Source: Conidiobolus incongruus B7586 (lineage: Eukaryota). Taken from it: a stretch of 51,741 nt of DNA. The number at the start of each line of letters is the position of its first letter. The first letter of the stretch is position 1. The notes under the pieces were generated by a model. The model was given only the letters and a program-made list of their open reading frames with translations, did not search any database and was not told the DNA's origin. The DNA lies in contig JNEM01009149.1 in NCBI GenBank assembly GCA_000697335.1, positions 1 through 51,741 of the forward strand. The letters run 5' to 3'. The position numbers and the translations under genes are program-made. This document shows, in pieces, positions 17,406-51,741 of the stretch.

Positions 17406-18777
17406 AATATATTAAATTTTTGTTTGGAAATACTTATTTATGTGAATTTTTTAATAATTATGATATAAATCAAATCACTGTAATATTTTAAAATATTATA
17501 AAATCAGGTTCTTAAACAAAATTGAAGTTATAATTTTCTAGAAATTAATTAATAGAAAGGCATGAAACTAATAGCATATAATTGAAATATATCTTAAATT
17601 ATTATGAAAATTTATTAAATATCATTATTGATTATTGGTGAATTAGATGAGAGAAAATATAATTAAAATTAAAATATATCAATTATCAAATAATTCAAAA
17701 ATTATGAATATTATTATAAATATTAGTTAATTAGTAGTATAGCCTCAGAGTGTCTATCATCCGTTAATGCTTAAGTTACGTATAATATTCCTTCTATTCA
17801 TAACATTCAATCAAATGGCAACTTGTGAATATTGATGAGGATTAGAATTTGTACCATTAAAATGGTATTGAAAATATTATAGAAAAAATTTAATTCTGAT
17901 TAAAATAAATTATTAATCAATCATATTATTCACTATTATTATGGATCAAATAAATTAATCTATATGATTTTAAAAATAATTTTTTGTAAAGAATTGAAAA
18001 TGTTGATAAAAGGGCAATTATACTAGGTAAGGTAAAGCGAATATAAACTAATATTTTTCTAATATAAAATAAAAAATACAAAATCACTGAACCTAAAACA
18101 TTATTTATTATGATCAGGGCATTCATTCTCAATAATACTATTAATAGTACAGATTAAATAGAATTCTAATGATTAACCCTACCTTCCCGAAAGCAAGCTT
18201 AATGTAATGTAATATTTGTTATATATCAAATTTTGTCAAAATTCTCTAATCAATTATAAAATATTAATCAAAACAACTAAATTTTTCAAATTTTATAGTA
18301 AATATTTAATACTGGTATTTTAATCATTAAATAAAAGATTCCAGGTAATTGACTTAATTGTATATTTATTGGTATGTTCTTTATCCTTTAAATCTAATAG
18401 TAAAATTAAAATTAAAATTAAGTATAACAATCAGTTATTTCGAAAAATCACCCATAATTTTATGTTATTTTTTCACCTTTAATTAATGAATAGATTGTTT
18501 ATCAATTTCTGATATAAATTAGATAAGAGGATTGAATGAGGTGGTATATAGCAAATTGATAATATCTATCAGTCATGCCTTCACCGTAATGCCCAATAAG
18601 GAAATATTATGACACCAAATCCAAACAAACCCCATTTGATAAAATGGCACAAAAGTTTTGAGGTGACCTAGTTGTTTATTATTACCTAATTATTTTTTCT
18701 TATTACAAAAAATTATTATTAGCGATTACTTTTCTTAGTCTTAAGATATTTTTTATTTTTTAAGAAGTGATCTACAC

Positions 18778-20483
18778 ATGAATAATAATGAGAGTTCTGT
18801 GTCGTGTGATATCTGGAGAATTCGAAAGAAGAGATGTGATAGGGAGTTGCCGAAATGTCAAAGCTGTATTAAAAGGGGCGTCGAGTGTAATTATCCCAAT
18901 ATTTCACGTAAAAGAAACATCAATTATACCGTATTTGCTTCTTCTCAAATTAGGCTAAATTTTAAAACTAATAGCAAGGAGCAGCAAGTAGAAAATAGCA
19001 GTAAAAGAGCATTGAGAGGACGTCCTGGAAATTTCATACATAAATATGGGGTACAAATCATGCTTTTTCAACCACTTCCAAATCCAAATTCAGCTCTAAT
19101 TGATAATTTAGCACAAAACTTTATTATTCCAATTGTCTCACAACAGACTCAAAAATTCGAAACACATCTTTTACTCATGCTAACAACGCAGATTGTCCAG
19201 TATGATAAGTTTATTATACCACAAATAGATTCTTTTGTGCAACAATTACAAGTTGGAACTTTTGGCGGATTATTGAAGACAACCTTCTGCATAAATCAAG
19301 AATGGATCAATGGATTGCTTCAACCTGATTTCCAATCTCAACTAATTCTTAACTATTTCACAAGTTTGCACATCATTTATCCTTACTTGTCAAAATATCG
19401 GTTTTTTACAAATATTGATTTTATGTCTCCAAATTTGACAAGTGTAATGTTGTATGTTAGCTACACAACATATCTCAAGCAACATCAGGAATTGCGTAAA
19501 TATCTCAAGCATTCTGCTCTGATCCAACTCAAGAAAAATATGTTTAATGTGATCCTTCAAGTTTGTCGAGCGCTATGTATTTTCAGCTATTTTATGCTAT
19601 TAGAGGGCTTGAGCAAGCAATCATTAGCCTATTTCAATCAAGCTTGTCTCATGGCAACTTCTTTGGGAATCTATAGAGGAATGCCTAATATAAGTTCAGA
19701 AATTCGACATGAAAGACACTGCCTTCAAACCTAGTTAAAAACTCAAGATTGTCATTTGTCAGCTAAAATAAGTTCATAACTATATTTCCTATTTATGGCA
19801 CCCTGCACTAAATCTTTGGATCCAATATATCAAATGGATCCACATCAAACACTACGCGCCGAGTTAGCTTGTACTATGCGCGATTGCTTTAATCTCTATT
19901 GGGCTCCGGGAGCTAGTCTAATGGTCGCATACTCTTTGATGGTATCTACCAAATCAAAATAGTTTCACTGCCAGGACTTTAAGGAAAAGTGCCAGTTTTT
20001 TGGCGAATCATGGACCTATTTCTTTCGAAATTGCTTGATCCGATTTTTAATAATATCAGACCGATACAAGGGTAAAGAAGAGATGCAAATGATCAACAGA
20101 TTGGTGTGGACGCATTGTGGAATTTATTGCCATCTCAGTCTAGTGACATACTCACAACTCCCACCCGCTGTTGATCCAGAAACAAGTGAACTGAATCCTA
20201 GCATCATGAAAGCAATCCAAGCAGCAACCGCCACCTACAGCATCTCTGACCAAAATGCTGAAAATTTTGTGCAAATGTTCTATCACTATCTATCTCAAAT
20301 ATCCTTCTTCTATATCGATATCGCAATGCATTTTGAATCTCACTATCCCACTCAATCCGATGTAATTTCTAAACTGCAACAAGCATAAACTATAATATTT
20401 TTCAAAAAAAGTATCATCAGAAAAATGATACTGTGGGAGTATTGGTATCTATGGTGAACTATTTTAAAATTTAATTGAAATAA
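18778..20483 (+). pseudogene. Zn2Cys6 TF paralog 1, pseudogene
   Basis: Second zinc-ligand Cys is Trp (TGG 18814-16); in-frame stops at 19732, 19777, 19960, 20386 and a frameshift near 20400; homology continues to KKYH..DT..V..SM.NYFKI*LK* ending 20483. Confidence 0.88.
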
Positions 20484-22751
20484 ATATTATGATACAGGCC
20501 ATTATTTTGATAAAAGTTTTTATTTTCATTAATTTATATAGTTGATTTATTTGATATTTATTAATTATATCAAAAATATGATAGTCAATAAGAATACTTA
20601 GAACCGTTATTTTGATCACTATCAAATATTCAATTTTTGACTAGTACCTAAATTGTGATTTTATGTGCTTTTAAATAGTGGTAGTCTATATTATGAGTGT
20701 TTACATTAAGAACATTTAGTATTTTTAATGATATACACACCGAATTCATATAAGAATTATAAAATACTATGTAAAATCAATAAATCTTTGAATAAATAAA
20801 TTATACTAGTGTCACAAAAATTGTATTTTATTAAACTGACTAGAGGATATTCTTAATCATCGTTTTAGGTAAGTAATTAATGATATAAAGCTAAATTTAT
20901 TTATAAAAAATTGAGTATGTTTAATAAAGTAGCATTATAATAGAATATCATGTATAATTGCAAAATATAATATATTATAATGAATATTTCAACATATGAA
21001 CAATTAATTTTATTCAAAATAAGGCTATTTATCATATTCAAAATACATATTAAATGAAATATTTGAAATTGAAGAAAATTATTCTAGTATCCATTCAAAT
21101 AATTATATTTGAAAATGTATCTAATAGAAAAATATAAGTCAGTATTTGATTTCAAACAATTCAGAGTTATCGTTTGGTTAATTTATTCTTATACCACTTA
21201 ACATTCTATAGATATTAGGTTCAAATCATTATTGGTATTCAACAAAGAAAGGTATATTAATCAGAATATATTACATTTTAGATACTAATTGAACATTTAA
21301 TCGATTATTAAAATTAGAATGTAATCAACTTTTAAACATAATTTTAGTATATATCTTTCTAATTGATTGTATTTAAAAAAGCGGTATACAATAATTGATA
21401 TTGAATAATATTATCAAGATAAGGATATATACAGTTTGTCATTAATAATATAATATCAGTAATTAATTACAAAATAACTACAAAATATATCTTAAGGATG
21501 ATTATTCAGATTTTATATGTTTAACGAAAAATAATAACTATCAATAAAGTATGATTTGATTTATTGAATTCATATATTGATACATTCTTTTCATCCTTTC
21601 AAGGGATTAGTTTTGCACTTTAAACATATGTTTTATTATTCCGCAATGAAAATTTTATAATATTCATTTTATAAAGAAATAAATATTTAGATTAATAAAA
21701 ACAACTTATATAATTTATATATATTACTATAGCAAAATATTCACAAGCAAGAGCTAATTTTCTTTAATCATAATTTAAACCCAATTTTATTATACTCAAA
21801 TTTGAGGTACCATTACTACTTTATAGACTGAAATATATTAATTATCCATTCAACAGATATCACAGTGTAATGAGTAAGAAAAAAATGAAATAATTATTAT
21901 TTGCATATATTTTTTGGAAATAAATAATATATCAAATAATATTACAATTTTTTTAAAGATTATGGTATGAATTTTTGATACTTAATGAAAATATACTCAA
22001 ATACACTGTAATTAGTATCAAAGATAATAGTTATTTATCAATACCTTTAGTAAGCAATAAATTATATCCATAGATAAATATTATTGTATAAATTGAAAAA
22101 TTTGCTTGAAATTTATTTGAAATGAAATATCTGATATTTTCAAACTTATATAAATTTTATCAAAATCTGATGTAAATTAGATATCAATATGTTTTAATAA
22201 GTAGAGATTGAATCTTCCAAATGCATGATTAAAAATTAAATTTTACAGGTTAGATATTTCTAGAACTAATTTTAATTATAATAATTGATATGAAACACAT
22301 TTATGGATTTCAAAAATGTCACTTTGAAAGAAACATAAACATTGGGTAGAGTGAAAATATTAGTTCAATATTCAAGATATATAAATGTTATAATATTAAA
22401 AAATTACTTAAATTTATATATTATTGAAAATATCGAAATTTATAAAATTCAGAATTAGAGAAATCTAATAATAATGGATTATAGTTTGTTTGCTTCATTT
22501 ATTTCATTAATGAAATTCTAAATTTTTATAATTCACTTAAAAAATTATTAATAACAACATATCAAATATTAGTAATCATTTAAAAAATGGAAATTCTAAA
22601 TAATTCAATTTATCAAAGCGTTATATTTATTCGATGAAAATATTTATTTTGCTTAAGCATTAAAGGACATTTTTTTATTTAAGGATGATCAATCGCTTAT
22701 AGATGGAAATTGTAACCGGTTAATATAAAATTATGAAAGTAATAACGCAAG

Positions 22752-24461
22752 ATGGTACACGTGACTGAGAGCTTGGTTTCTTGTGATTCATGTCGAAAAA
22801 GGAGGATAAGATGTGGAAGAGAGTTACCAAGGTGTAGGGGCTGTATTAAAAAATGTATAATCTGCAATTATCCAAGCCAACCTCACAAAAGAAGCACAGG
22901 AGAGACAGTTTTTTCATCCTGCGAAAATAAATTAAAATTGAACAAGTTAGAATTAAATAATACCAATCAATCCACATTGCTATTGCATTCAGTGAGCTCT
23001 AATTATAAATTTAAAATTAAACTTTATCAGCCAATGACTGGACTTAGTCCCATATCTACCGACTCGATTGCACATAATTCAGTATCTATGATACAACTGA
23101 AGCAACCTCATAAATTTGAAACTCACCTTTTACTCTTATTGACAACACAAATTGTCAATTATGACAAACAAGTGATTCCCGAAATCGATGCTTTTGTAAA
23201 TAAATTACAATTAGGAATTTTCGGTGGAGTGACCAAAGTGAACTTCCACATGAATCAGGAATGGATCCAAGAGCTATTTCATCCAGACTTTCAAATCAAT
23301 CAAATTAATAACTATTTCGCAACCTTTCACTTGGGCATACCATATCTTTCAAAATATCATTTCTTTACTAACTTGGAAAAAGTTTCATCTTTGCTCAAAA
23401 GTGTAATCATATATATTGGATATGCTAGCTCTCGTAAGCAACATCCAGAATTATTGAAATATTTGAAGCATTGTGCTCTAATCCAGTTAAAGAAAAATAT
23501 GTTCACCATTAATCTTGATATATGTCAAGCTTTATATATTTTCAGTTACTTTATGTTCCTTCAAGGTTTGGTCAAACAATCTTTAACGTATTTCCATCAA
23601 GCTTATCTAATGTCCAGTGCTTTGGGGATCTTTTTAAAAATGCCCAACTTGAGCACAGATCAACGAAGTCAAAGATATTTTCTTGGAACTACTTCCTATT
23701 CTCACGATTCACACTTGGCAGCTACTTTGCGTATGCAACCTTACTTTTTATTTTTAAATCCGACATGGCTAACTTTGGATCCAGTGTATCAGATCAGTCC
23801 ATATTCCGAAGATTCTTGCGAAATGATACATGCAGAGTGCATATGCATCAATAGGATGTGCTTTGTACTCTTTTGGACACCTTCAACCAATCTAATGATA
23901 ATATACTCGCTCATTGCTGCCAAACAACCCACTACTCTTGATCTTAATACCACAGTTCATAGAATTCGAATTCTTGAATATCTATTCGATTTATGCCTAA
24001 TTAAATCTTTAGAAGTCTACTTGGAATTATCAAAAAAATACAAACAAGAAAATGAGCTCAATATTATCAAAAAATCAGTATGGATAATTTGTGGCCTATA
24101 TTATCATTTGAAAATTCTGTTATACTCTCAAGTTTCCCCGACTGTGGATCCAAATACTGGAAATCTCAATTCAGACACACTAAAAGCAATGAAAGCAGCT
24201 ACAGCTATATATAATATTACAATGTGCGATCCAGAGTGTTGTATTCCGATGTTTTATCATCATCTATCACAGATTTCGATGCTTTATATCAAAACAATTC
24301 TAGTATTAGACAATTATCCTCGCATAAAACTCCAACTCACTCAAAAATTAAGAGATATTTATAAATTATTTATATATTTTAAAAAAAAGTATCATTTTTC
24401 AGAAGATACTTTGGAAGTGATCGAATCAATGGCAAATTATTTCAAAATACATATCAAATAA
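22752..24461 (+). CDS. Zn(II)2Cys6 transcription factor with fungal middle-homology region, paralog 2 (569 aa, intronless)
   Basis: CDSCRKRRIRCGRELPRCRGCIKKCIICNYP = Cx2Cx6Cx6Cx2Cx6C; YFxxFHxxxPYLSK...AYLMSSALGI MHR-like segment. Confidence 0.93.
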   Translation: MVHVTESLVSCDSCRKRRIRCGRELPRCRGCIKKCIICNYPSQPHKRSTGETVFSSCENKLKLNKLELNNTNQSTLLLHSVSSNYKFKIKLYQPMTGLSPISTDSIAHNSVSMIQLKQPHKFETHLLLLLTTQIVNYDKQVIPEIDAFVNKLQLGIFGGVTKVNFHMNQEWIQELFHPDFQINQINNYFATFHLGIPYLSKYHFFTNLEKVSSLLKSVIIYIGYASSRKQHPELLKYLKHCALIQLKKNMFTINLDICQALYIFSYFMFLQGLVKQSLTYFHQAYLMSSALGIFLKMPNLSTDQRSQRYFLGTTSYSHDSHLAATLRMQPYFLFLNPTWLTLDPVYQISPYSEDSCEMIHAECICINRMCFVLFWTPSTNLMIIYSLIAAKQPTTLDLNTTVHRIRILEYLFDLCLIKSLEVYLELSKKYKQENELNIIKKSVWIICGLYYHLKILLYSQVSPTVDPNTGNLNSDTLKAMKAATAIYNITMCDPECCIPMFYHHLSQISMLYIKTILVLDNYPRIKLQLTQKLRDIYKLFIYFKKKYHFSEDTLEVIESMANYFKIHIK

Positions 24462-25044
24462 ATATTATTATATATTGCTATTAGTATTTTTTAACTCTCT
24501 AGCTTTGATTTGCATTCTATAATTTTAATATCCTGTATTTAATATTAGATATTGGTTTAATAATGATTGAAGCAAATAACAACTCAGATCCAAACTCTTC
24601 TATAATTTTATATAAACCACAAAATAATAAATTTTGAATTCAACTGAAATTAAATTTAATTACATAATAAATGAAATAAAATTATTTGTTTATGATCGAT
24701 AGAATTGCAAGTAAAGTATAAAATATTTTGATAAATTTAAAGAAAATCTATTACTAATATATTAATTATTCAGTTATGGAATTATAAAATATATTACACT
24801 TGTCAAGATAGTATAATAGTTCATTTTATTTTTACATATTATTGAAATTATTTTTCAATTTTAATTAAATAATTATTTTAAAAACATCTAGTTGATAAAA
24901 TGTAACCAAGGATGAAAAATTGTAAAATATATATTAAACACGTCATATTTATTTTGAGTTTAAATTTAAAGTATCAACTTAATGATATTTGTATAGTTTT
25001 ATCAAATTTAGAAAAGACTAAATATAATAATGTATATAACATTG

Positions 25045-25398
25045 TGTTGTATTTATAAGTTTTATAATTAAAGGTCATTGTTGCAAAAGTACTTGTAATA
25101 TGATTTAGTAAATTATTTATTAATCCTGCTCTTTAATGTATTGGGACTGTATGTCTAAAAACTTACTGTTGAGACATTGTAGTAGAATATCCAGAAAAAC
25201 TTTCTTTCTATCTTTATCACTTTTAGGGTATAAATAGTTGATTCAATGAAGGATATGGGGTTTGGTTAAAGTTTAACAGAGTGGACAAAGAGAACAAAAA
25301 GTATCGTTTAATTATAGGCTGACAAAGCCAGCTTAAAATAAAAATAGTATTGGTTTGGCTATCAAACTGGGATAGGAGGTTAATTTTGAAATACAACA
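25045..25398 (-). mobile_element. Solo LTR, family A copy 1 (354 bp)
   Basis: Perfect 10-bp terminal inverted repeat TGTTGTATTT / AAATACAACA; aligns end to end with the reverse complement of 30345-30706 (GTATTGGGACTGTATGTC vs GACATACAGTCCCGATAC); flanks ATTG/ATAG. Confidence 0.8.
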
Positions 25399-25585: not shown

Positions 25586-27313
25586 CTATTTAATAGGTTT
25601 TAATTGAATTTTGAAATGACTAGCCATTGTTTCGATTACATCCAAAGTGTCTTCAGAGAAGTGGTATTTGGCTTTAAATTGAATAAATAAAATATAGATA
25701 TCTTGTAACTTTTTGATAAGCCCTAATTGAATATGAGGATATTGCTTGATTTCCAGTATTATTTTGATATAAAATAATGATATTTGGAATAGGTAATGAT
25801 AAAACATTGTAACACAACTCTCTGGATTACTTGATGTGATATTATAAATTCCTGTAGCAGCTTTAATTGCTTTCAATGTGGGCCAATTTAGTTGTTGTGT
25901 TGTTGGATTGATAGTTGAATGCAGCTGAGAGGATAAAATTAAATTCAAAGTATAATACATTCCACAATGTGACCACACTGATGCCTTGATAATATCTTTC
26001 TCGGGTTTTTTAATATAAACTTGTGATAGATTCAAATATCGTTTGAGTGTATTGATAAAAGAATAATTAAATAGCTGATTGAGATATTGGATTTTCTCAA
26101 TGAACAACTCCTTATCCAACTCAGTTGATTTTTTTGATAACATTAGTGAATAAATCACCATCAAATTGGTTGAAGGAGTCCAATATCGGTTAAAACAGTC
26201 TCGAGTTATGCATGTACATTCGGCCAATAATTTTTCGTTAGAATCTGAAGAGTAAGGATTAATTTGATAATTTGGGTCTAATGATTTAAGATGGGGTCCT
26301 GTATATTGAAAATAAGGCTGGATTCTTAATGTGGCAGCCAAATGAGAATCTTGAGAATACGAAGAAACTCGGAGAGACTGCCGGTCTTGTTGAATTTCTG
26401 GATGGATATTAGGGATATCTGTGTGAATTCCCAAAGCAGAGGACATGAGGCATGCTTGATTGAAATAAGATAGCGATTGTTTTGCTAGACCTTGAAATAA
26501 CATTGAGTAGCTAAAAATATACAAAGCTTGGCATGTACTAACACTAACTGTGAACATATTTTTCTTGACCTGGATAAGGGCGCAATGTTTTAAATACTTC
26601 AACAGTTCAGGATACTGCTTAGGGTGATTAGTGTAACCTACATATAATATTACGCTCATTAAAACAGGTGAAATTTTTTCAATATTAGAGAAAAAACGGT
26701 ATTTTGAAAAATATGGATGTACTAAGTGAAATCTACTGAAAAAGCTATTGATTAACATATTTTGAAAATCATGACGAAACAATTCTTTGATCCATTCTTG
26801 ATCCATGTGAAAGATAAGTTTAGCTTGTCCTCCGAAAATTCCCGCTTGTAATTTAGAGATAAACGGTTCAATTTTGGGGATGATATCCTGATCTATTTCA
26901 ATAATTTGAGTCGTTAGTTTAAGAATAAGATGTGTTTCAAATCTTTTATATTCATTTCGAGGAGTCAGAATACAAAATTGTGGATATATATCCTGGCTCA
27001 AAGTTGACTTGTATGATGAAATAGGTTGGTATAAAATAAGATTTCCTTCATTTTTGAGCGATTGCCTTTGGTATCTGTTTTTCAATAAGTTATTTTTTCC
27101 AACCTGTAAACGTTTACCACCAATTCGAAAATATAATTTGTGTAGAGTAGAGGAAAAAACAGTATTCTTGATGTGACGTTTATGAGATGTATTCGGGTAA
27201 ATGCAATTTACATTCTTTTTAATGCATCCTAAGCATTTGGGTAACTCTCTCCCACATCTTTTTTTGCTAATCCTACAAGAATCGCAAGAAACTGAGTTAT
27301 TTTGTATTTCCAT
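25586..27313 (-). CDS. Zn(II)2Cys6 transcription factor, paralog 3 (575 aa, intronless; only paralog on minus strand)
   Basis: CDSCRISKKRCGRELPKCLGCIKKNVNCIYP; colinear similarity to paralogs 2 and 5; TATATAAA-like box at 27391-27398 upstream. Confidence 0.93.
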   Translation of the reverse strand: MEIQNNSVSCDSCRISKKRCGRELPKCLGCIKKNVNCIYPNTSHKRHIKNTVFSSTLHKLYFRIGGKRLQVGKNNLLKNRYQRQSLKNEGNLILYQPISSYKSTLSQDIYPQFCILTPRNEYKRFETHLILKLTTQIIEIDQDIIPKIEPFISKLQAGIFGGQAKLIFHMDQEWIKELFRHDFQNMLINSFFSRFHLVHPYFSKYRFFSNIEKISPVLMSVILYVGYTNHPKQYPELLKYLKHCALIQVKKNMFTVSVSTCQALYIFSYSMLFQGLAKQSLSYFNQACLMSSALGIHTDIPNIHPEIQQDRQSLRVSSYSQDSHLAATLRIQPYFQYTGPHLKSLDPNYQINPYSSDSNEKLLAECTCITRDCFNRYWTPSTNLMVIYSLMLSKKSTELDKELFIEKIQYLNQLFNYSFINTLKRYLNLSQVYIKKPEKDIIKASVWSHCGMYYTLNLILSSQLHSTINPTTQQLNWPTLKAIKAATGIYNITSSNPESCVTMFYHYLFQISLFYIKIILEIKQYPHIQLGLIKKLQDIYILFIQFKAKYHFSEDTLDVIETMASHFKIQLKPIK

Positions 27314-29442
27314 TATAGCAAATGCAATAAATTGGATTCATCTCATGTAAAAATTATCAAAAAATGTTATCGTTCAACTCCAATATTGGGTTTATATATA
27401 CAAATCAAATTGAATTTCATTTATCAATATTCACCTCAAAGCTATTTTAGAAAATCAAAGGTATTAGGCTTTTTATATTGAATGTTATCTAGTTCAATAA
27501 GGTAGGTTTATTTTGTGAATTATAATTTTCATTTCAGTTTTAAAAATTAAACCAAATAAGTATTAATAAAGTTTGTAGAAAACAAAATATACAATTCATA
27601 TTAAAAATAAATTCAACATATAATTAATACTCTTTAAAAACTGGAGATATAATGGGGTTCCTTTTTAAAATAAGTACATAAAACTTATCAATTGCATTAT
27701 CTATTTAAATATGCATTCAATTGATCTATAGATATTGCTTGATTTAGGTATTTGAACGAAGCTTTTACCTCAATAAAATATAAATCGTTAATGAACAAGA
27801 GTAAACTAATTAATTTATTTGGAAATAAAATCTCCTGCCTTTAATAAGTATTCAATCAAAAATACTCAATATTATTTACAGTTCAGGAGAGGATATTTAA
27901 ATTTAATAGGATAGCTCATAGTGAATAATTTTTATTAGTTAATCAAGTCAAATTAAACTATATTGATATAATATAAATAACGAGTATATAAGAGTAAAAA
28001 GGTCTTAAAATAGATTCTTGGTCAAATACACAACAATTGCAATATTGGTTTCATTTAACTAAATATTATATGAAATCTTCTAAATTATGATGAATATAAT
28101 ATGTAATAATTAGGTAGCCAAGTTCTCGTTTTGGTTTATATATCAATTCTCATCTGTTATTCGACATTTGCAGGGCCCTATTGTATTTTACTGGCTTCAG
28201 CAAACCAAGGTGTATTTATATTAATCAAATCTGTGGAAAATGTTAATTTTTTAATATTAAACATCCTCCTTTTCTACAACCCCGACTTCATAATAACACT
28301 TTCAAATCGATTGTTGCCTGATGATTATGCATTAGCAACAATACGAACTTTGTCAGCTAATATCTTTTGATATAATGGTTAATTGTATTTTCATTAGAAT
28401 ATATTCCAAAATTAATTTCATTACACATATTGTTATATGTAACAAAATTATAAAAATTTTTCATAATTTTATATTCTTCATTTTCATTCAATTCAATTTT
28501 TTGATTGATTATATTAATCATAATCTATATGTTTTTAAAACACCATTATTTATTAAAAATCATATACATATCAAATTAAATAAGACAGTAAGAATTAATT
28601 TCTAAATTTTGATTTTATTATAACACAATTCTTCAAAATGAAAATATAAAAAACATTTATTATAATTTGGACAATAATGCAATATAATAATTATTTCTCA
28701 TTAAGTTATAAAAGTTACAATTTAATCAAAATGAATGTCAGTATTGTAATAAAATTCATTCCAATTAATTGATTTCCAATATAAATTAAAAATATTAATA
28801 AAAAGGAATAAACTAAACAATTTCTTAAATAAGTATATCCGATATATTATGATTAATATTTTGAATTTTTCATTGTGATTAAAAATGAGTGTATTATATC
28901 AAATAATTTCTCCATCTATTTTTAATTTAATATATAATATCAATCGAATAAATTTTCAATATTAATATATGGCCATTTTCCAAAATATCTTAGATAATTT
29001 TATAAATTTATTTTCTGCATTATTTAATTTGTCAATATAGATAAATTTAATAATTATATAACCATATTTATAGATAAATAATATAAGTTATTCGGTCCAA
29101 ATATTAAATTTATGTTTGTGTAATCATTAGCATATATCTCATTTTCTATTAAAATCCATTTTAATTATCAAATTAGAATAAACGATAGATATTACTTTGT
29201 ATCTTAAATTTTTATTGCACATAATCAAATTCATATATTATTATAAAAAATGGACCTAATTATATTATAAAAATGATCAAGTATTCATTCTATGTTTAAC
29301 CAAAATTATTCCAAGTCTATCAATAACATTAGGATTATAGAATGCTTATCAGATTTAATCAAGTGATATATGCAATGTCTGATATATATTTGGCTTTGAT
29401 TTTTAATTACGTTAATTTGATTTAAATTAGGGATTATGAAAA

Positions 29443-30344: not shown

Positions 30345-30706
30345 TGTTCTATTTTGAAAATACCCATCTGTCTCGATTTGATAGTTAAATCCATATTACC
30401 CCTCATTTATAGTGGCTATTTCAGTCCATAATTAAAGAATATTCTTTGTTCTATTTGTTCTCTTAGTTAGATTTTAATCAAATCCTATATCATTCACTGA
30501 ATCGACTATTTAAACTCATTAGTGGTAAAGAGAGGAAAAGAGGTTTTTGTGAATATTCTGCTACAATATCTCAACAGTAAATCAGATTCAAGACATACAG
30601 TCCCGATACTTTAAAGAGCAAGCTTAATAAATAATTTACTAAATGATATTATGAGTTTTTTCCTAACAATGATCCTTATTTACTAAACTTATTAAAAAAC
30701 ACAACA
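30345..30706 (+). mobile_element. Solo LTR, family A copy 2 (362 bp), inverted relative to copy 1
   Basis: TGTTCTATTT...AAACACAACA termini; colinear with reverse complement of 25045-25398; AATAAA ~30626; flanks ATGA/ATTA. Confidence 0.8.
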
Positions 30707-32095
30707 ATTATAAATATTATTTAAATATTAATTAGCAACGTTGTTTTATTAATTCCTTTATATATGAAATGATAAACTATAAATTGAAATATTACACTTT
30801 AAAATATGAAGTAATTAGTGATTAAATTTTTCTTTGTTATTTCAACTTAGTTTATAAATATTATTTTGATGTTCTATTTTTAATGTATAGCAATGATCAT
30901 GGTTATTTTAATTTATTAAATATATCTCATATTATGGATAAGGGTTAAAACAAATCTTATTATATATAAAAAAATTAAAGTGTAAGTCTCTTTCAATTAA
31001 TATATTTCGAATTAACAACTTTATTGAGCTTATGCTGAAATTTCACTGATTTAAGCTCTCAACGTCAATATTGAACAACTCATTAATTGCATATTATATT
31101 TTATAGAATTTAATAAGTATCTTTGATCAAAAATATTAGAGTTATTATCCTCAATCTATATATTATGATGAATAAAAATCCTTATCCTTCTCAATATATT
31201 GATGAAACCTTCACTCAGATCAAATCATATGAGCTTAATGTAGAAACGCTAATTTTGACAGGTTCAAAAATTTCATTTTATCAATTTTTCTAATTAATAT
31301 TCATTTCAACTCATTCGATATAAATTTGTATTTTTCAAATAATAATTTACAAATTGTGTAGTTTTTTCATGATAACAGAATATTAACTAAACTATATTAA
31401 TCGAGAGGGTTCTAAATTACATTTAGCAATTTATTTATATAATTTAAAGAAAAAAAGATTAGTATTTGTGCTCTGAAGCAATATTTTTCATTCATAAACT
31501 TTAATTAGATTGAATTGAATATTAAATAAATTATTATTGATTATTTATAATTGGAATTAAATTAGAAATATTATGTGTAAAAGTAACGAATATATTTATT
31601 TACACCAATGTTATAATATTTATAATTTGATTCAATATTAAAGTAAATAGTATACTAACTATTTAATATAGTTTAAGTTGTAATATAGAAAGGGTTTTAA
31701 ATTGGTGATCAATGAAAGACAAAAATTTGGCTTAAATTATTGTTATTGGATCATTATAAATATTTGCAAATGCTTTATAATACCAATTATATACTAATTA
31801 GTAAGAATAGATTTAAATTATATGAGCTACATAGTGGTCAATAACAATAATTAATTAAATAGTCAAATATTAGGGAGCAAAAGTGGAATCAAGTTGATTA
31901 ATCATAAGAGAAAAATTCTTAAAAATTAATCTGATTAATTATATATAAATGGATATAAAAAATTAAGTGAAAAATATAACAATAAATTTTTCAAAGGAAC
32001 TCGTATATCTCTTTTATATTTATATTCATACTAAATAATCTAAACATTGGATGGCATATCATAACTTACTTGCATTCAAAATCTGATAAAATATG

Positions 32096-34205: not shown

Positions 34206-35895
34206 ATGGAAGCACAAAAGAAATTACAATAAAACGGACTTGAGTGTCCTATATCTTACAATTCATTTAGTTAAAGAAAGTGTAGGTGATAGCTACTGTA
34301 ATGTGATATTTGTTCTAAAAAGCACGTGATATTATGCAAATTATTAGATAATCATTACTATTATTAAGCACTCAAAGCTAAAGAATACATTCAGAGATAC
34401 GAATAAGGCGAATTTACAACTAAAAAATATAAATAACAAGTTTTTGAAGACTCATAAGTGAATTTGATAATTAAAAATGATATCATACCTTACACATCAC
34501 CATCCTGAACTCAAACCTCAATTCTGATAGTGATCCCTACAAAAATATTTCTACACCATTATACTTGAAGCAATCTAGAAAATTCAAAACACACTTACTC
34601 TTTATGCTAATAAAGCAGATTATTGAATATGACGTATTTATAATCATTAAAATCGATTCTTTTTTAAACAACGTATATGGCGATATTTGGTGGTGTAAAT
34701 AATATCTTCCTTTAACAAAAAATATCTTCAAAGTTATTTCAATCCAATTTACAAACTATTTATTATTAATTATTTCTTAAAGTTTTACAATAGATTCTTT
34801 TTTCAAATTAGCCCTTCTTTAGTAATCGAGATAAATCTTCTCCGGCTCTGATGAGTGTGACCTTATACGTTGACTACTTAAACTACCCAAAGAATCAGCC
34901 TGGACTTGTCAAATACTTAAAGCACTATTTTTTCTAATTTAATATCAGTATGTTTAAATTTAATGTCAGTATATTTCAAGCATTTTTTTCAGTTAAGCCA
35001 TGTTTTCTCAAGCTTTAAGAGAATAAGTTCTACCGTATTTAACTGTGAGTGTCTCATTTTCCCCGCACTGGATATATATATATATATAGTGATAAGAAGT
35101 GTAAGTCCTGAAAAGTAACAAAAAATATACTGTTTCCAGGGGTGTTGAACAGCTCAAGGCTCAAACATATGTCTGACATTGAGTATACAACCTAATTTCA
35201 TTTATATTCTCCTATACTCAGCATTTGATCCCAAATATCAAATTTACCTTCATTCCGAAAGTCCTTTTAGAACATAACTTGCTGAATGTATATCTATCAA
35301 TATCAACTATAGAGAACATTATTCAATGCCCACATCTTTTCTCAACCAGTTTTACTCACTTTTATCTCAAAAGATTACTACCATTAATATAAATTACAAA
35401 TTTAATTTCAAGACCTCCAAATTTAATGTAAATACATCATTGAAATAATCTAGATATTTTACATCTAACTAATATTAATGTAACGATGAGATAAATATTG
35501 TGAAAACACTCATTTTGGCTCATTGTGGTGTCTATTATAAGGTGTGCATCATCTTGTGCTCTCAATTCTCTCCAACCATCGATGTTGAGATAACAGACCG
35601 ACTGGAATATAATGAAATCCATAAATATTGCAATAGTCGAATAAAATTTCAACTGAAGTGAATACGACATTTTTACGTTCATGATTCATCGCTACCTATT
35701 TCAATTATACTTGTTTTACCTTCAATTAATTCTTGCATTAAGAGGCTATCCCTATAGTAAAGTTGAATCATCTAGAAAATTATGACATATACATGAATTT
35801 TTTATTTGATTAAGAAAACAATATGATGTCTAGGATAAAGCTATCAAATTGGTTGGACCTATGTTATATAAATTTAGAATTCTATTCAAGTATAA
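34206..35895 (+). pseudogene. Zn2Cys6 TF paralog 4, heavily decayed pseudogene (not in ORF track)
   Basis: ATG 34206, then SYNSFS*RKCR**LL*CDICSKKH (relic zinc cluster), KFKTHLL/MLIKQIIEYD ~34580, IFGGV ~34685, SPALMSVTLYVDYLNYPKNQPGLVKYLKH ~34840-34925, FDPKYQI ~35225; many stops and frameshifts; end approximate. Confidence 0.85.
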
Positions 35896-38638: not shown

Positions 38639-39894
38639 ATCAAATAGATATATTAATAGTTATATTAAAACTGATCACCAGTTTATTAAACTTAACATAG
38701 GATATTCATACGAATCTAAAGATAATAGCATAAAAATATATTATTAATAGTGTAATTATTAAATGAATGGATGCATTAAATCAAGAATTCAAGAATTAAT
38801 CAAGTTTGAATTAAATTTAATTGAATTAGATAAATAAGGTATAAAAAAATAAATATTAAATGTGTCTCAATTGATATTTAGAGAAAGTAACTTAAATTTT
38901 GATTTAAACCGAATAAGTTGATAAGTAAGTGAATATAAATGTTTTTAATATTATAATCTTTATCTTGATTGATTAAAAAATACTATGATAAATAAATCAA
39001 GGATGCTACTAAATTTATTTTACTAAAAAATGATAAAAGTATTTAGCTTAAAGATCAAAAACCATGATTACAGAATCCAGTACAAAATTATATAAAAAAG
39101 AATATATAATATTAGATGATATAGATACTAATAGCATATTATTATTTCCAACCACTTCAAAAAAATAAATAATGATAGTATATAAATTAGATATTTAAAT
39201 ACAAATATTATTGTTTTATGTAAGAGGAATAATATAAAAACGTTTATTTAATAAAATAATATTTAAATACAAACAGCTAAAATTATCAAAACTTAATTTA
39301 TTTAAAATAACTGAACTTTAATACCATATTTACCAGCTATAAATCCCTGTTGATATTATTGTTTTGATGATTTATAGAATTTGAACCAAGGAAAGAGATT
39401 TAATGATACTTCTCTATGTAAAAAATAGGGGTGCAATTTTGAAGATATATTCTAAAAAATTATGTGAACGTGTTAATTAATAATATTATAGAATTCTGTT
39501 ATTTGAAAGTGAGGAAGTTATTAATGATCAAAATGAAATAATTTTTTTCTAGCTATTATTTTGTTAAATTAAATTTCAAAATTGGTGTACTTTTATAATT
39601 ACGTTTTATTATGAATAGATGTATTGTCTCTATATAAAGATACATATAATAACCCATATATACCATAGTATTGGGTAAAATCTATCATTATATTGTATTA
39701 AGAAGCATAGTAAAATTATCCGATATCGCATTATCATTAGTGAAACTTAAAAAATTTGAAGCCCATGTTAGCATAATCGTTGAGGCGGTTCGTTTAAAAC
39801 CATAATTAAAGTTTTATAACTTTTAAATACATGGAGTTCATCATCAATTTTTGGTCTTGTAAAAATTATTCCTATCTGCTGGATTGATAACAAT

Positions 39895-41598
39895 ATGGAA
39901 GAGAGGAAAGAAAGTTCCGTTTCTTGTGATACTTGCAGATTGAGAAAAATTAGATGTGGTAGGGAGTTTCCAAAATGTAAATATTGTACCAAAAAATCTG
40001 TCTTTTGTAATTATCCTAATCATTCTCATAAGAGGTCGAGTCAAGTTACGGAGTTTTCGTCGTCGCAAAATGTTTTGAATTTCAAAAGGAGTGTTGAGAA
40101 ATTAACGAAGAAAAATAATATAGTATTGAGGAGATCTAGAAGGCCACATTCTTATTATGATATTCAGATAATTTTTTACCAACCCAGCCCCAATCCAAGT
40201 AAAACTTCACCCTCCGATAATTCACACGATCTGATAAGCGCTCTAAGTAAAAGAAAGTTCCAACAATTCGAAACCCATCTGATATATATGTTAACGACGC
40301 AAATCATCCAAAACAACGTTGAAATAATACCCGAAATTGAAGCATTCGTAAGCAAATTACAGTTAGGGATATTCGGAGGGGCAATTAAGCTGCATATTCA
40401 TTTGAGCCAGGAATGGATCCGAGAGCTTTTTCATCCCGATTTTCAAATGAAACTCATCCAATGCTACTTTGAAAATTTTCACGCGGTTTATCCTTATTTT
40501 TCAAAATATAAATTTTACACCAATTGTGAAAAGATTTCTCCAGTGTTGAAGAGTGTAATAATGTACGTAGGATATACGAGTTATTCTAGGCAGCATCCCG
40601 AACTCTTGAAGTATTTGAAGCATTGTGCCATGATTCAGCTTAAGAAAAATATGTTTAATGTTAGTATTGATGTATGTCAATCTCTGTTTATTTTTAGTTA
40701 TCATATGCTATTTCAGGGATTGGCCAAACAATCGCTGGTTTATTTCAATCAAGCATGTTTGATGTCTTCCGCTTTGGGAATCCATATGACAATACCCAAT
40801 ATTAGCCCAGAGTTTGAAAACGAAAGACATTCACTTCGCGTCACATCACATGCTCAAGATACACACATAGCCGCAAATTTGGGCATTCAACCCTATTTCA
40901 TATTTCTAGATCCCCATCCTAAGCGTTTAGATCCAAAGTACCAAATTAATCCATATTCCAAAGATTCATACGAGCAAATCCGCGCAGAATGCACATGTCT
41001 AACACGAGATTGCTTCAATCAATATTGGACTCCTTCAACTAGCCTAATGATGGTATACTCACTAACAACATCTAAACAATCTGAAAATTTCAATCAAAAA
41101 ATCAAAATCCTCAACCAACTGTGCAACTATTCATTTATCAACACCCTCCGAAAGTACTTGCAACTCAGCACTCGACTAAAAACCCCTGAAGAGATAGACA
41201 TAGCAAAAAAATTTGTTTGGGCTCATTGCGGTATGTACTATACACTGACACTCATTTTATTCTCCCAACTCCCTCCCACAATTGACCCCTGCACACAACA
41301 ATTGGATATGGGCACTTTGAAAGCGATTCAGGCTGCTACCGCATTGTATAACATCACATATAGCGATCCTGAAAGTTGTGTAGTAATGTTCTATCATTAC
41401 GTATCACAAATTTCTCTATTCTATATTAAAACTATACTTCATCTCGAACAATATCCTGAGATTCAAAAGGAGTTAAAAAAGAAGCTGAAGGATGTTTATC
41501 AATTATTTATTAGATTGCAGAAGAAGTACCATTTATCAGATGATACTTTGGAAGTGGTTGAAAGTTTAGCTAAATATTTTAAAATTGGATTAAAATAA
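39895..41598 (+). CDS. Zn(II)2Cys6 transcription factor, paralog 5 (567 aa, intronless)
   Basis: CDTCRLRKIRCGREFPKCKYCTKKSVFCNYP; colinear similarity to paralogs 2 and 3. Confidence 0.93.
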   Translation: MEERKESSVSCDTCRLRKIRCGREFPKCKYCTKKSVFCNYPNHSHKRSSQVTEFSSSQNVLNFKRSVEKLTKKNNIVLRRSRRPHSYYDIQIIFYQPSPNPSKTSPSDNSHDLISALSKRKFQQFETHLIYMLTTQIIQNNVEIIPEIEAFVSKLQLGIFGGAIKLHIHLSQEWIRELFHPDFQMKLIQCYFENFHAVYPYFSKYKFYTNCEKISPVLKSVIMYVGYTSYSRQHPELLKYLKHCAMIQLKKNMFNVSIDVCQSLFIFSYHMLFQGLAKQSLVYFNQACLMSSALGIHMTIPNISPEFENERHSLRVTSHAQDTHIAANLGIQPYFIFLDPHPKRLDPKYQINPYSKDSYEQIRAECTCLTRDCFNQYWTPSTSLMMVYSLTTSKQSENFNQKIKILNQLCNYSFINTLRKYLQLSTRLKTPEEIDIAKKFVWAHCGMYYTLTLILFSQLPPTIDPCTQQLDMGTLKAIQAATALYNITYSDPESCVVMFYHYVSQISLFYIKTILHLEQYPEIQKELKKKLKDVYQLFIRLQKKYHLSDDTLEVVESLAKYFKIGLK

Positions 41599-46723: not shown

Positions 46724-48007
46724 TTATGGAAGTGGCTTTACTATTTAGATACTTGCCTGTAATATTAATTCTTATCCTTAATTAAAAATTATTAAATTTG
46801 TTATTTAAATTAAGAATCAACTATTCTATATTGGTTATTCTATCTTTATTCTCAATTACAAATTATACATATATTTTTATAAAAATTATATTTCAATTTA
46901 ATATAGAACAGCATCAAAATATTTATATCAGCATTAACTATGCAAATTAGACATTTAACTTTGCATTAAGGAAAAAATTCTAGTATTATGATGATTTTTA
47001 TTACTTATTAGATATATGAGTCATAAAATTAGTCATGTTCTTATTATTAGATGATGCTTAGATAATGATAACTAATATTTTTAGTTACCAGTCTCATGAT
47101 ATTAAACAGAAAATTGTTGATGTAATAAACTCTCTTACACTCTCTTTGAGTTCATACATATTCTTTAGTGTTATTGTTGGTCAATCTTTATATTTTTTAT
47201 TTATTTGCAAAAATGATTTCCAACAATATAAATTCCAATATATATCTTAGCCATTCCTAAAGCTATAGAACTGAAAGCCAAGGAGTATTTTAGCATTACT
47301 TATAAATAAAATAGATTGATGTCAATATATTAAAATAATTATATTAAAATTTAAAAAATTAAAATAGGTTTAAAATTCTAAATTGAAACCTGAAAAAATA
47401 ATGTAAATTGAAATAGAAATAGATTCATTGAATATCATCTGTTGTATCTATAAGATTATATTGCTTCCATAATAATCTCATCGAACAGGCTATTTTTATA
47501 TTAGAACTAGAATAATTTTGGAATGGTACCTAACTAATAAAAAACAAGGGAAAATTCAATTTAAACTTTATCAAAGAATGTATAAATCAATGATATAAAA
47601 CAAATAATTATATTTATAATACTGACCAACTTGTATAAAGTTTGCTCAATATTTCATAACAATCTAACATATGATATATACTAACCAAAAGACATTATAT
47701 CGCACACTTACCAGGATAAAAGGGTATTATTGATTAATTATATAGATCGGTCACTATTACATCTTTAATCTCCCAAATCAGTTAATTTAAATATTATTAA
47801 TGTTGTCATTAATTAATTTTTCTAAAAAAATTAAGTGGAGATAATTATTAGAAAATTCTTTTTATTTAGTTTAAGAATTGAATTAATATTTTTTTCAAAA
47901 TTCATGATAATATTACAAAATAAATTTAATAAATACATTAAATCATCTACTTTACACAAACTAAAATTTTATCACAATACGTCATCAACTTCTACACAAG
48001 CTAAAAT

Positions 48008-49637
48008 GTATTTATCAAAGTCTAAATTATGTAACCAAAAGAAGATAAGATGTTCTCGACATTTACTAAAATATCAAAATTGTACTTAACGCGAATTGCA
48101 GTGTATTTATCCCAAGTTGCCGCATAGAAAACACTGTAAACATAAAGTGTGTTTGAGATACCATGCGAAAATGAAGGCCTAAAATACTAGAACTGAAATT
48201 AATATTAGTGATAGTAAAATTTGCATCAATCTTTTAAAAAATCTGTTTATGATGAATAACCATACTCTTTTATTTTGTGTAAGATTATTAAACCTATTGA
48301 TATTACAATTAAGGAGAATATTGATACCGTGATGGTGAAAGCGGATGAAAATGTAAACTCCTAGATATTTCAATATAATTTATTATTTTATTATTCTTCA
48401 AGAGAACCATGTTATCAATAAAAATCCGGAACTTCTGAGGCAAGTTGATGGGCTTAAAGATAAGGTGAAGTTTGAGATCTTCGATGAATGTTCCAAATCC
48501 AGGTTCCAGCTGAAAAATGAGTGGGCTCACAACTTCTAAGACTCAATTTTAAATAATCTTTAATAGATATCTACTATATTAACATCCTTTTTGACTTTAA
48601 TTATCTGCTGAAATACCACTCTTATAAGAATATTAAAATTATTCCTGAATTGCTGCAGAGTGGAATCAAATAATTTTAGTACAACACCCATCCAAAGCAA
48701 AATTTGGGGTTCGAAAATATCTAAAACATTATGTACTCATCAAACTGAATAAATATGTTTGTGAATATCACAGTGTGTGAAGCACTGTCCATTTTTAGTC
48801 ATATGATATTATCTGCGGGCTTAGGGAAACAATCATTACCCTGTTATTGTCAAGCATGTAGAATAGCTTTCATTGTAGGTATTGCACGAGATATACCGAA
48901 TTTTTTGAGTATGTAGCAGCATCGTAGATATTATATTAGATCAACGGCCATCCCTCCCAATGCTCGCGTTCAACAAATTTTACTATTCAATCCTATTTCA
49001 TCTATCATGCTCCAGTACTTACAAACTACGATCCCAAGTATCAAACACATTCTGACTCCAATTATTGTGATGAGTATTTAAATGTTGAATGTATATCGGT
49101 ATTTCAAAATGCTTCAGATGGATACTAGAGACGAATTATCAGTCATTTAGATATATCAACAGAGCGAACACAGCTACAACACCTTCAATTAAACACCAAA
49201 AATGGCATACTCATGCTCAATTCTTCCAAAAATACTTCACCGATGCTATATCAGAACCCTTGAACTTTTTCTAACACTGAGAGAGAGGTATTAGCACGTT
49301 ACCAAAGCAATTTCAATTGTTAGTTGATTTGTATCGGTGTTCCCACTCCTTTGCTACCAAATAATTCCACTAATCCAATTTCAGTACATAGCAACGTAGG
49401 GCACTGACGCCAACACGATTGACCCACCCTCTCGTCGAGTTGCAAGCAGTGGAACTCATGTACAAAGTTATTCTAACCAACATAGAAAACTGCATCTACC
49501 CCTTCTATCAACTCCACACCACCATGAGCCTCTTCTTCATCAAACTCATGCTCAACTACAACACTCACACTACACTTCAACTAAATATCCAAACTGAATT
49601 GATAAACATCAGTATAAAAATTTTAAATTTAATGTAA
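48008..49637 (+). pseudogene. Zn2Cys6 TF paralog 6, divergent pseudogene
   Basis: LCNQKKIRCSRHLLKYQNCT*RELQCIYP (relic zinc cluster), VKFEIFDECSKSRFQLKNEW (cf. LQLGIFGGVTKVNFHMNQEW), KYLKHYVLIKL, VCEALSIFSHMILSAGLGKQSLPCYCQAC..VGI..DIPN, YDPKYQ; stops and frameshifts; limits approximate. Confidence 0.85.
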
Positions 49638-50589
49638 ATTCTAACATAATAGTATTGAAGTTAAAAATATTGGAATTTTATAAAATTCAAAAACATTGCT
49701 AAATGAAATATAATTTTTTTTATTTAATAATATATAAAATCATTAAAGACTGTCAAATAGCTCAACCCAAAAATATGTATTTATGATACTTGCGATTTTA
49801 TATATATATATATATATTTATTATTATTCAACATTAATCTCAAAGAACCAGAATTTTCCTTAATATTTGGTGGATATTAATATTACTTTTTTTTATTTGT
49901 TGTTTGTATTTAATTTTATATCCATTAAAGTTTATTAATATGAATTTCAGCATTTAAAGTTTCATAAATTTATGAATTTTCAATATTCTATATTATGTTA
50001 TTTAAAAAGGCTACAAAAAGATTTCTAAAATTTTATAGACTCTATAATAAAGTTATATTTGTATATAATTAATAATGCTTTTGATTATAAAGCCAAATTG
50101 AAGTAACTAAAATTCATTAAATATTTTCACTATGATAATAATTTCTTAATTTTTATAAACCATATATTTTGAAAATTGAATAGTTTGCCAATAAATTATC
50201 TTAATCATTTGAAAATATGCTTGAATATTATATTCATACTTTGTATTCTATTGATATAGAGATTTAATTTATTAATTTTTCAATTAGAATATGAATCAAA
50301 TTACAATTTTAAATAAATCCAAAAACTTGAAGCATAATAATTTTGTAATACTAATAATAATGATAGTAGATATTAAGTTCAAACTATTGAAGATTCAATA
50401 ACAGAATCTATTAAAAATTAGAAATTCATTAATATATATATATCAATCTCTTTGCTTAATTTCAGCAAATTGATATTTAAATTTTATTTTGAAGTATTAC
50501 TTTGTAATTTAAATAATGGAATTTTTTCTGATTGAAAAAAAATATATATTTTAATATATAAAAAGTAACAATAAATATATAATATAAAA

Positions 50590-51610
50590 TTTTTAATTTC
50601 CTCTATTTCTAATAACTTTTTGCTATACTTTTAACAAAGATATAATACTTAAAAATAATTCTTTTTATTAAAAACTAAAATTTAATATTTTACAAACCAA
50701 TTAAATTTTTTTGTAAAGTTTTTTTTTCTTATAAATTAGTTTTTTAATTGCCTAAAACAATTATAATTACATAAGATATAATCTAAATAATATACTAGAT
50801 GTGGTAGTTTTTTCCAGTTATTTTCAATTAGAAAATTTTTTATAAATTTAAATTTATGTATTTTATAATTATTATGTAAAATAATAAGTTTTCTCAAATT
50901 ATATTAAAAATACTAATTCAAAATAAATTTATTTAAAAAAAATATAAAGTTTATTATTAATTAATTTTCTTTTAAGAATTAAATGAAAATAATATATATT
51001 ATTATAATCTATTAAAATAATTTATTTTCACTTATTAAAAAAGTGTTTATTTAAAGGAATTTATAAAAAGGGTTGATTTAACTTAATCTAAAACTTTAAT
51101 TTATTTTTTAATAAAAGATTATATAAATAAACTTAAGATTTATAAAATTATAATAATTTATTATAAAATTTTAACTTCTAGCTATATATTAGTAAGTCTT
51201 GTTTGATAATAATTACCCTAGTTTTTTTTAAGCTTTAGTTAAATAATAAAGTATTTATTTTATATTTTTATTAATTAATTTTAATATAAACTTTAATATA
51301 TATAAAACACTTATATAACTAATATTAAAATGTTTTAATAATTCTTTAACTAAAATAAAAAGATACTTTTTAATATATTTTTCTATTTTATTAATAATTA
51401 TAAATATAATAATTGAAATTAATCTTTAAGATTTTAATAAGTTTTAGGTAGTTTTATTCTTAATTTTAAAATAATTTACCTAGTGATAAATTGTTGAATT
51501 AGATAATACTTTATCATTAAAAATAGCTTGTAAATTTTAAATGATTTTAAAGGATTTATGGTTTAGTTTTATTAATACTAAAATAAAAAACTTTTAATAT
51601 TTATTATTTA
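50590..51610 (-). mobile_element. Mariner (DD34D) transposase relic, hypermutated; element probably extends past window end
   Basis: Minus strand: *ILYYL (51257-51240, from WVPHYL), KS*VYLYN (from ESWVYLYN), IILHNN (50873-71, from HDN), WKKLPHLVYYLDYILCNY (from WEELPHPAYxPDxAPCDY), SLLKV*QKVIRNRG (from LPxxWQKVI); exactly 34 codons between 2nd and 3rd catalytic positions; start approximate. Confidence 0.88.
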
Positions 51611-51741
51611 TTTCAAATATAATTAAATTTAAAAACTAATTTTAAAATATTTTTTTAATCAAAAAAACTATATACATTAACCTACAAAAATAAGTTATAA
51701 AATCAAAAATATATATATTTTAATTAATAACTAAAACAATT

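What the first reader, a model, noticed from the sequence alone, without database searches (positions are those of the whole stretch)
50590..51610. True DD34D mariner hidden in AT-rich sequence: possible animal-to-fungus transfer
Seen: relic WVPHxL, ESWVY, HDN, LPHPxYxPDxxPCDY and WQKVI motifs in the right order, with exactly 34 codons between D2 (50873-71) and D3 (50768-66). Known: WVPHEL/YSPDLAPSD with DD34D defines mariner proper, mostly from animals and prone to horizontal transfer; fungal Tc1/mariner elements are usually Fot1/pogo-like or DD34E. Inference: acquisition from an arthropod or other animal host is plausible if this fungus is an invertebrate pathogen.
Basis: partly seen in the sequence, partly recalled or inferred. 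Interest (0 to 1): 0.7.

Follow-up and report, generated by a model that had tools for sequence, protein, structure and literature searches.

The report
Decayed deep-branching mariner family in fungus
This is a dead copy of a 'mariner' jumping gene, a kind known mostly from animals, that is highly repeated in this fungus and has lost most of its C and G letters, likely to a repeat-targeted defence; it has no close relative among the animal mariners compared, so a transfer from an animal is possible but not shown.

Summary
A DD34D mariner transposase relic lies on the minus strand (51599-50596, three frameshifts). D2 and D3 are 34 codons apart; both codons read AAT, as G>A decay of Asp codons gives. 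PDB and library searches return only mariners. About 10,700 contigs of one sequencing run lie on it, with a sharp end at 50495, so it is one copy of a large family. An estimated 70% of its C/G became T/A, against about 2% per other change; CpG is gone. The animal-donor reading is not shown. With decay modelled, the element falls on a deep branch beside an unnamed-host clade; nearest full-length relative about 40% identical, named insects and rotifer about 34-36%, while simulated decay of a true donor was easily recovered. The host is a fungus, probably early-diverging; its lifestyle was not tested. An old transfer from an unsampled non-fungal host is likeliest; long fungal residence is a close rival. 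This scan already noted mariners and similar decay in other early-diverging fungi.

The parts
50497..51693 (-). Whole mariner element, about 1.2 kb, dead; 50497-51600 is 11.8% G+C with no CpG
   Evidence: 3' end fixed by reads; 5' end only a candidate; composition
50495..50496 (.). TA dinucleotide at the 3' junction, probable target-site duplication
   Evidence: Summed contig depth jumps from under 160 to over 13,000 here; 12 loose ends and several joints end at 50495; a unique contig bridges the junction with no difference
50497..50540 (-). 3' terminal inverted repeat (candidate; length not fixed)
   Evidence: Lies at the read-defined end; matches the 5' candidate
51651..51693 (-). 5' terminal inverted repeat (candidate, decayed; no TA seen beside it)
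   Evidence: 44-nt probe scores 20.5; 0 of 410 AT-rich control stretches reach it (max 20.0); with a 30-nt probe 7.8% do. Suggestive only
50596..51599 (-). Transposase relic: 332 codons aligned to the mariner profile, many stops, three frameshifts (near 51160-51220, 50915-50940, 50650-50705, by aligner)
51240..51257 (-). WVPHEL-type linker motif, relic WIPHxL
   Evidence: other copies read C at the second base of the Pro codon (51250) in 91% of depth
51127..51144 (-). D1 region and ESWVY relic; D1 codon itself reads TAT and is not confirmed
   Evidence: alone it gives no PDB hit
50871..50873 (-). D2 codon (AAT, inferred from GAT) in HDN
50766..50807 (-). LPHPxYSPDxNPCD motif ending in D3 (AAT, 50768-50766)
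   Evidence: other copies supply Ser (50788, 95% of depth), Asn (50776, 99.6%) and the first base of Pro (50774, 84%)
50611..50625 (-). WQKVI relic near the C-terminus

Best explanation
This is a dead, heavily C>T/G>A-mutated copy of a highly repeated DD34D mariner DNA transposon in a fungus, from a deep branch with no close relative among the mariners compared; it likely entered the lineage long ago from an unsampled non-fungal host and was likely silenced by repeat-targeted cytosine methylation and mutation. Steps: (1) Shown: mariner transposase relic with DD34D spacing, a read-defined end at a TA, and thousands of related contigs in the same sample. (2) From established knowledge of Mos1: an intact ancestor would have bound its two short inverted ends, cut itself out and inserted at TA; copy number rose through gap repair and replication. 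(3) Shown: decay is almost all C>T/G>A, on both strands, far beyond the host's non-repeat DNA. (4) Inferred: the cause is a DNA methyltransferase acting on repeats (CpG first, also CpA and CpC, CpT least), closer to Dim2-type decay than to CpA-specific RIP. (5) Inferred, weakest: arrival by old horizontal transfer; animals are the largest known reservoir, but no donor is identified. Odds on origin: old transfer from a non-fungal eukaryote 0.5, long residence or spread among early-diverging fungi 0.45, recent transfer from a sampled insect subfamily 0.05.
For: Identity. Family: 10,694 of 482,767 contigs of run X1 laid on 1.8 kb (X2 13,875 of 1,490,999; X3 10,750 of 489,761; all one sample, probably the window's source, so not independent); summed depth 7-160 in the flank, 575-187,536 inside. 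Decay: 276 of 380 variable places in X1 are transitions; at C/G places 108 of 116; fitted loss 0.71 of ancestral C/G against 0.025 per other change, log-likelihood -889 against -1117 for a coarse grid without the excess; 11.8% G+C against a median of 20.4% in 64 intergenic windows, matched only by a second decayed tract; composite RIP index +0.51 against -0.50 for the rest. Context: 0 CpG (3.8 expected); 8 of the 10 listed sites where most other copies keep C/G are followed by T (P 0.047). Deep position: best edge is the stem between clade Q (P0024, P0025, P0028, P0030, P0033, P0034) and the other 63 references, weight 0.975, resampling support 0.89 for Q plus stem; 4 of 7 diagnostic columns favour Q, 1 opposes, 2 neutral. 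No close donor: log-likelihood ratio 100 at distance 1.2 for the best full-length reference, against 407-447 at distance 0.02 in 3 of 3 simulated donors. Fungi are not among the mariner hosts listed in PMC7325037.
Against: No host is known for any clade Q protein, and 0 of 81 fetched loci fall in it, so the origin is open. The tie to clade Q rests on the C-terminal third, which was also the search query; the upstream part alone does not single it out (support 0.20; four other references score above P0025). The panel is small (69 rows) and drawn by similarity to clade Q. The context fit puts CpT loss as high as CpA (0.75 and 0.76), against the model-free sign that CpT resists; the two disagree. 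No methylome and no methyltransferase gene could be looked at (no genome held). Contig depth is no copy number. Earlier unchecked notes of this scan place mariners in two other early-diverging fungi, which fits fungal residence as well as repeated transfer.
Confidence: 0.55

Rival explanations
1. The element belongs to an overlooked DD34D clade long resident in early-diverging fungi, passed down vertically or between fungi; no animal donor is needed.
For: Deep branch outside all named animal groups; strong decay would hide such elements from Pfam-based surveys (one search finds nothing); Tc1/mariner makes up 12-13.9% of two Entomophthorales genomes, subfamily not given (PMC11105155); Tc1/mariner moves often between fungi (10.1101/2025.06.16.659975); unchecked notes e1-7322823 and e1-9511815.
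Against: No named fungal protein among the 120 listed hits or the clusters read; PMC7325037 lists no fungal mariner; microsporidian elements fell in Tc1, pogo or a group of their own, not in mariner (PMC4202319); the Basidiobolus note describes a Mos1-type element, which this is not.
Confidence: 0.4
2. Recent transfer from an insect or other arthropod host, from one of the known mariner subfamilies.
For: DD34D with WVPH-type and YSPD-type motifs; 3 of the 9 first hits are named arthropod proteins.
Against: Named ant, scale-insect and rotifer references lie at implied identity 33-36%; a true donor would have been recovered through this much decay (simulation); copies differ from each other by 15-20% in the longer pieces laid, so the burst is old.
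Confidence: 0.05
3. The decay is classical, RID-dependent repeat-induced point mutation at CpA, acting outside Dikarya.
For: Positive composite RIP index confined to the element and one other tract; CpA observed/expected 0.68; both strands hit; index hints and RID-like domain architectures were reported for Entomophthorales, with caveats (PMC10515909).
Against: CpG is hit hardest (0 left; fitted at least 0.9) and CpA is not singled out; a kingdom-wide screen found RIP-like signatures only in ascomycetes, with CpA preference (PMC12543289).
Confidence: 0.2
4. The low G+C is plain neutral drift in an AT-rich genome; no targeted process.
For: Intergenic DNA here has a median of only 20% G+C and is itself CpG-poor (202 seen, 337 expected).
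Against: C>T/G>A loss about 0.7 against about 0.025 per other change; element below all intergenic windows except the second decayed tract.
Confidence: 0.1
5. Animal contamination or assembly chimera.
For: The element sits at the end of the window.
Against: A unique 766-nt contig bridges flank and element with no difference in X1 and X3, and X2 has a like piece; thousands of related contigs share the decay; the neighbours are fungal genes.
Confidence: 0.02

Closest known systems
[quoted passage not shown]
   Same: Only PDB hits; gap-free D2-D3 alignment, 34 residues; same motif order; about 1.2 kb; TA at the end
   Different: Dead and hypermutated; fungal host; no WWD in this copy; NPCDYNCF-type rather than APSDYHLF-type motif; far outside the Mos1-like ant clade in the tree
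Unnamed-host clade Q (P0025 352 aa, P0034 354 aa, fragments P0024, P0028, P0030, P0033)
   Same: Best matches over the whole length and at the catalytic end; shared xMD for WWD, Trp before D2, NC/NV after D3
   Different: Still only about 40% (full length) to 50-54% (C-terminal third) implied identity; the upstream part does not single out this clade; hosts unknown
Dim2-dependent C>T mutation of methylated transposons in Zymoseptoria tritici (PMC8016269, abstract seen)
   Same: Repeat-confined C>T excess that includes non-CpG sites
   Different: There CpA-specific and shown by experiment in an ascomycete; here CpG is hit most and no enzyme is identified
Repeat-induced point mutation of Neurospora crassa and other ascomycetes (PMC12543289, abstract and section 9 seen)
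   Same: Dense C>T/G>A on both strands of a repeat, positive composite index
   Different: No clear CpA preference; host outside the ascomycete branch of the VPS53 tree; RID and meiotic timing not tested

Membership tests
mariner (DD34D) | 34 residues between second and third catalytic residue | tested here: met
   34 codons, one frame; gap-free against Mos1
mariner (DD34D) | Third catalytic residue Asp, not Glu | tested here: met
   Codon AAT is reached from GAT by G>A, not from a Glu codon; the DD34E control L081 scores lowest among the references printed
mariner (DD34D) | First catalytic Asp | tested here: inconclusive
   Codon 51144 reads TAT; the next residues E-x-W fit; other copies' letters here were not among the 40 of 424 rows shown
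mariner (DD34D) | WVPHEL-type and YSPD-type motifs | tested here: met
   Relics at 51257-51240 and 50807-50766; other copies supply Pro and Ser codon letters
mariner (DD34D) | Length about 1200-1300 bp with 20-30 bp terminal inverted repeats (PMC7325037) | tested here: inconclusive
   3' end sharp; 5' arm only a candidate giving about 1,197 bp
mariner (DD34D) | TA target-site duplication (recalled) | tested here: inconclusive
   TA at 50495-50496 on the 3' side; none seen beside the 5' candidate
Mos1-like insect mariner subfamilies | Placement inside the WWD crown clade with named insect members | tested here: not met
   Best edge is far outside it; named ant proteins at implied identity 33-34%
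pogo/Fot1 or Tc1 (DD34E), the usual fungal kinds | Best matches are pogo or Tc1 transposases | tested here: not met
   6 of 6 PDB hits and 9 of 9 library hits are DD34D mariners
Horizontally transferred element (animal to fungus) | Identity to a donor higher than host genes allow | tested here: not met
   No reference above about 40% over full length; panel limited
Horizontally transferred element (animal to fungus) | Nested within an animal clade; patchy in fungi | not testable with these tools
   Nearest clade has no host names; no eukaryote genome collection can be searched
Classical RIP | C>T/G>A excess confined to repeats | tested here: met
Classical RIP | CpA preference | tested here: not met
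   CpG at least 0.9, CpA 0.76, CpT 0.75, CpC 0.48 in the fit; model-free data suggest CpT resists
Classical RIP | RID methyltransferase, premeiotic timing | not testable with these tools
   No genome held

The most novel reading that the evidence does not exclude
An undescribed deep branch of DD34D mariner is at home in early-diverging fungi, where it rose to hundreds or thousands of copies and was then wiped out by a RIP-like C>T hypermutation that reaches beyond CpG, outside the Dikarya; such families are invisible to Pfam-based surveys, so the 'animal' host range of mariner is partly a detection artefact.
Probability: 0.3. Interest if true: 0.65.

Novelty: new member of a known kind. Interest (0 to 1): 0.42.

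Why it matters
DD34D mariners are not listed for fungi in the survey read (PMC7325037), and my searches of the paper library found no report of one (subscription journals and Repbase are not covered). A large fungal family either marks a cross-kingdom invasion or widens the native range of mariner. Its many copies also give a ready data set for measuring repeat-targeted C>T mutation in a fungus outside the groups where RIP is accepted. It is a dead element, and neither the donor nor the enzyme is identified, which caps the interest.

Tried and rejected
No whole genome is held, so no consensus of copies, no search for an intact copy and no methyltransferase search. Pfam on six frames of the relic: nothing. 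Word-based protein search with the relic: 249 candidates, none at E<=10. PDB with the ESWVY segment alone: nothing. The ESM Atlas gave no result for the relic, so look-alikes there are unknown. Viral contigs: no relative by protein pattern or by a degenerate motif. Metagenome scan: 80 best of 465 loci kept, none in clade Q; prokaryote genomes: one DD34E locus, used as outgroup. No RNA holder listed. Run X5, same species label, holds next to none of the window's words and laid nothing, so it is another organism and says nothing on presence. A plain tree with the raw relic put it with clade Q, but on a branch of 5.4 with odd letter make-up; not relied on. No second mariner copy in the window: 66 AT-rich control stretches score at most 49 against 236.5. 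Look-ups of earlier findings by place or sequence: nothing. The one supplementary file held for PMC5751038 has no per-family count for Transposase_1; its other tables, and Additional files 2-4 of PMC7325037 (not opened), may list fungal DD34D elements.

Full report
1. Observation. D2 and D3 are 34 codons apart in one stop-free frame, and both read AAT. Pfam sees nothing, but phmmer of 50592-50939 against the PDB gives 6 hits, all Mos1 or SETMAR, and against 1.84 billion representatives 9 hits, all DD34D mariner cores. A frameshift-aware profile alignment that allows for C>T/G>A loss covers 332 codons, 51599 to 50596, at 185 bits; 15 shuffles reach 20.5 at most. Of 33 columns conserved in at least 85% of the panel, 14 are identical, 13 are reached by C>T/G>A alone and 6 are not; D1 is among the 6.

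2. A large family. Contigs of three runs of one sample (probably the window's own source) were laid on 49800-51600 at 80% likeness. In X1, 10,694 of 482,767 records lie on it. Summed depth is 7-160 in the flank and 575-187,536 from 50495 on. Twelve loose ends and several joints stop at 50495, where a TA stands, and a unique contig bridges the junction with no difference, so the insertion is real. Depth is no copy number; as a rough floor, the top single-place depth (221,819) over a single-contig depth near 30 and a 31-fold overlap gives some 200 copies (inference). Only 40 of 424 variant rows were shown. A decayed 5' inverted repeat may lie at 51693-51651 (0 of 410 control stretches score as high with a 44-nt probe, 7.8% with a 30-nt probe), which would give about 1.2 kb.

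3. Decay. 50497-51600 is 11.8% G+C with no CpG (3.8 expected); the median of 64 intergenic windows is 20.4%. The composite RIP index is +0.51 for the element and -0.50 for the rest of the window. Of 380 variable places in X1, 276 are transitions; at C/G places 108 of 116. A codon model with ancestral residues drawn from the tree fits a loss of 0.71 of C/G against 0.025 per other change; by 3' neighbour CpG at least 0.9, CpA 0.76, CpT 0.75, CpC 0.48 (p 8e-7 against one rate). The model-free sign differs on CpT: 8 of the 10 listed sites where most other copies keep C/G are followed by T (baseline 0.49, P 0.047), and CT is the commonest C dinucleotide left. So the decay is targeted and not limited to CpG, but it is not the CpA-specific pattern of RIP. 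RIP is accepted only in Dikarya, with index-level hints in Entomophthorales (PMC10515909, passages), and a kingdom-wide screen found it only in ascomycetes (PMC12543289, abstract, passages and section 9).

4. Host. Neighbouring genes carry Zn2Cys6 and fungal transcription-factor domains, KRR1, VPS53 and BRCT. VPS53 groups with fungi (97/97), on a long branch with one unnamed protein at 73%, outside the ascomycete branch; the best named hit is Basidiobolus ranarum at 36% (19 homologs only). An early-diverging fungus is likely; order and lifestyle are not resolved.

5. Where it sits among mariners. Against 129 proteins the best decay-aware score is P0025 (236.5); the top five plain scores all belong to one clade, Q. 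Q lacks the WWD motif and has NPCDFN-type motifs. For placement, 152 proteins were cut to 69 by dropping rows 60% or more identical to a kept row, and one chimeric-looking row (P0056). With decay in the tip likelihood, the best edge is the deep stem between Q and the other 63 rows (weight 0.975; resampling 0.89 for Q plus stem). The catalytic end alone gives 0.93; the upstream part, which was not the search query, only 0.20, and there four other references outscore P0025. Four of 7 diagnostic columns favour Q, one opposes, two are neutral. Pairwise, the nearest full-length protein lies at distance 1.2 (about 40% identity), the named ant, scale-insect, rotifer and Synstelium proteins at 33-36% implied identity. 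Three simulated donors decayed at the fitted rate were each recovered at distance 0.02, so a close donor in the panel would not have been missed. No clade Q protein carries a host name, and none of 81 fetched loci belongs to it.

6. Mechanism and verdict. An intact ancestor would have moved by cut-and-paste into TA sites, as Mos1 does (established knowledge); it multiplied, and its copies were then killed by repeat-targeted cytosine loss (shown), likely through methylation (inferred). Its arrival by an old transfer from a non-fungal host is a little more likely than long fungal residence: PMC7325037 (passages and section 6) lists arthropods, excavates, flatworms, gastropods, nematodes and rotifers but no fungi as mariner hosts; PMC5751038 (passages, one supplement) pools all Tc1/mariner; PMC11105155 (passages) gives 12-13.9% Tc1/mariner in two Entomophthorales without subfamily; PMC4202319 (passages) puts microsporidian elements outside mariner; 10.1101/2025.06.16.659975 (passages) shows frequent transfer between fungi. 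A recent transfer from a known insect subfamily is disfavoured. New member of a known kind; interest 0.42.

Noticed in passing
window 15001-17100: A second tract with the same decay: 15.5% G+C, 0 CpG in 2 kb (11.9 expected), positive composite RIP index in four 500-bp windows. Likely another dead repeat; not a mariner; Pfam on six frames and PDB on two frames name nothing.
   Followed up: partly
window 18745-20500, 22746-24461, 25586-27337, 39820-41598: At least four paralogous Zn2Cys6 / fungal transcription-factor genes, long single frames, about 62-72% alike in DNA; a fifth decayed piece may lie near 35200. They keep CpG and show no RIP-index rise, so diverged gene duplicates escape the decay.
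   Followed up: partly
window 25026-25300 and 30450-30721: Inverted non-coding repeat of about 250 bp, 77-85% alike, without one-sided C>T loss by eye; possibly a duplicated regulatory or gene-end stretch.
   Followed up: partly
window 49832-50533: The unique contig in the flank has depth about 14 where contigs at joints have 25-42 (X1); could be a heterozygous insertion allele or AT bias.
   Followed up: no
P0026: A DD34D mariner fragment is on record from Synstelium polycarpum, an amoebozoan by my recall; a further non-animal host if not contamination.
   Followed up: no
window 48000-49600: G+C rises to 29-38% with no frame of 90 codons: probably an intron-rich gene next to the element; not identified.
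   Followed up: no
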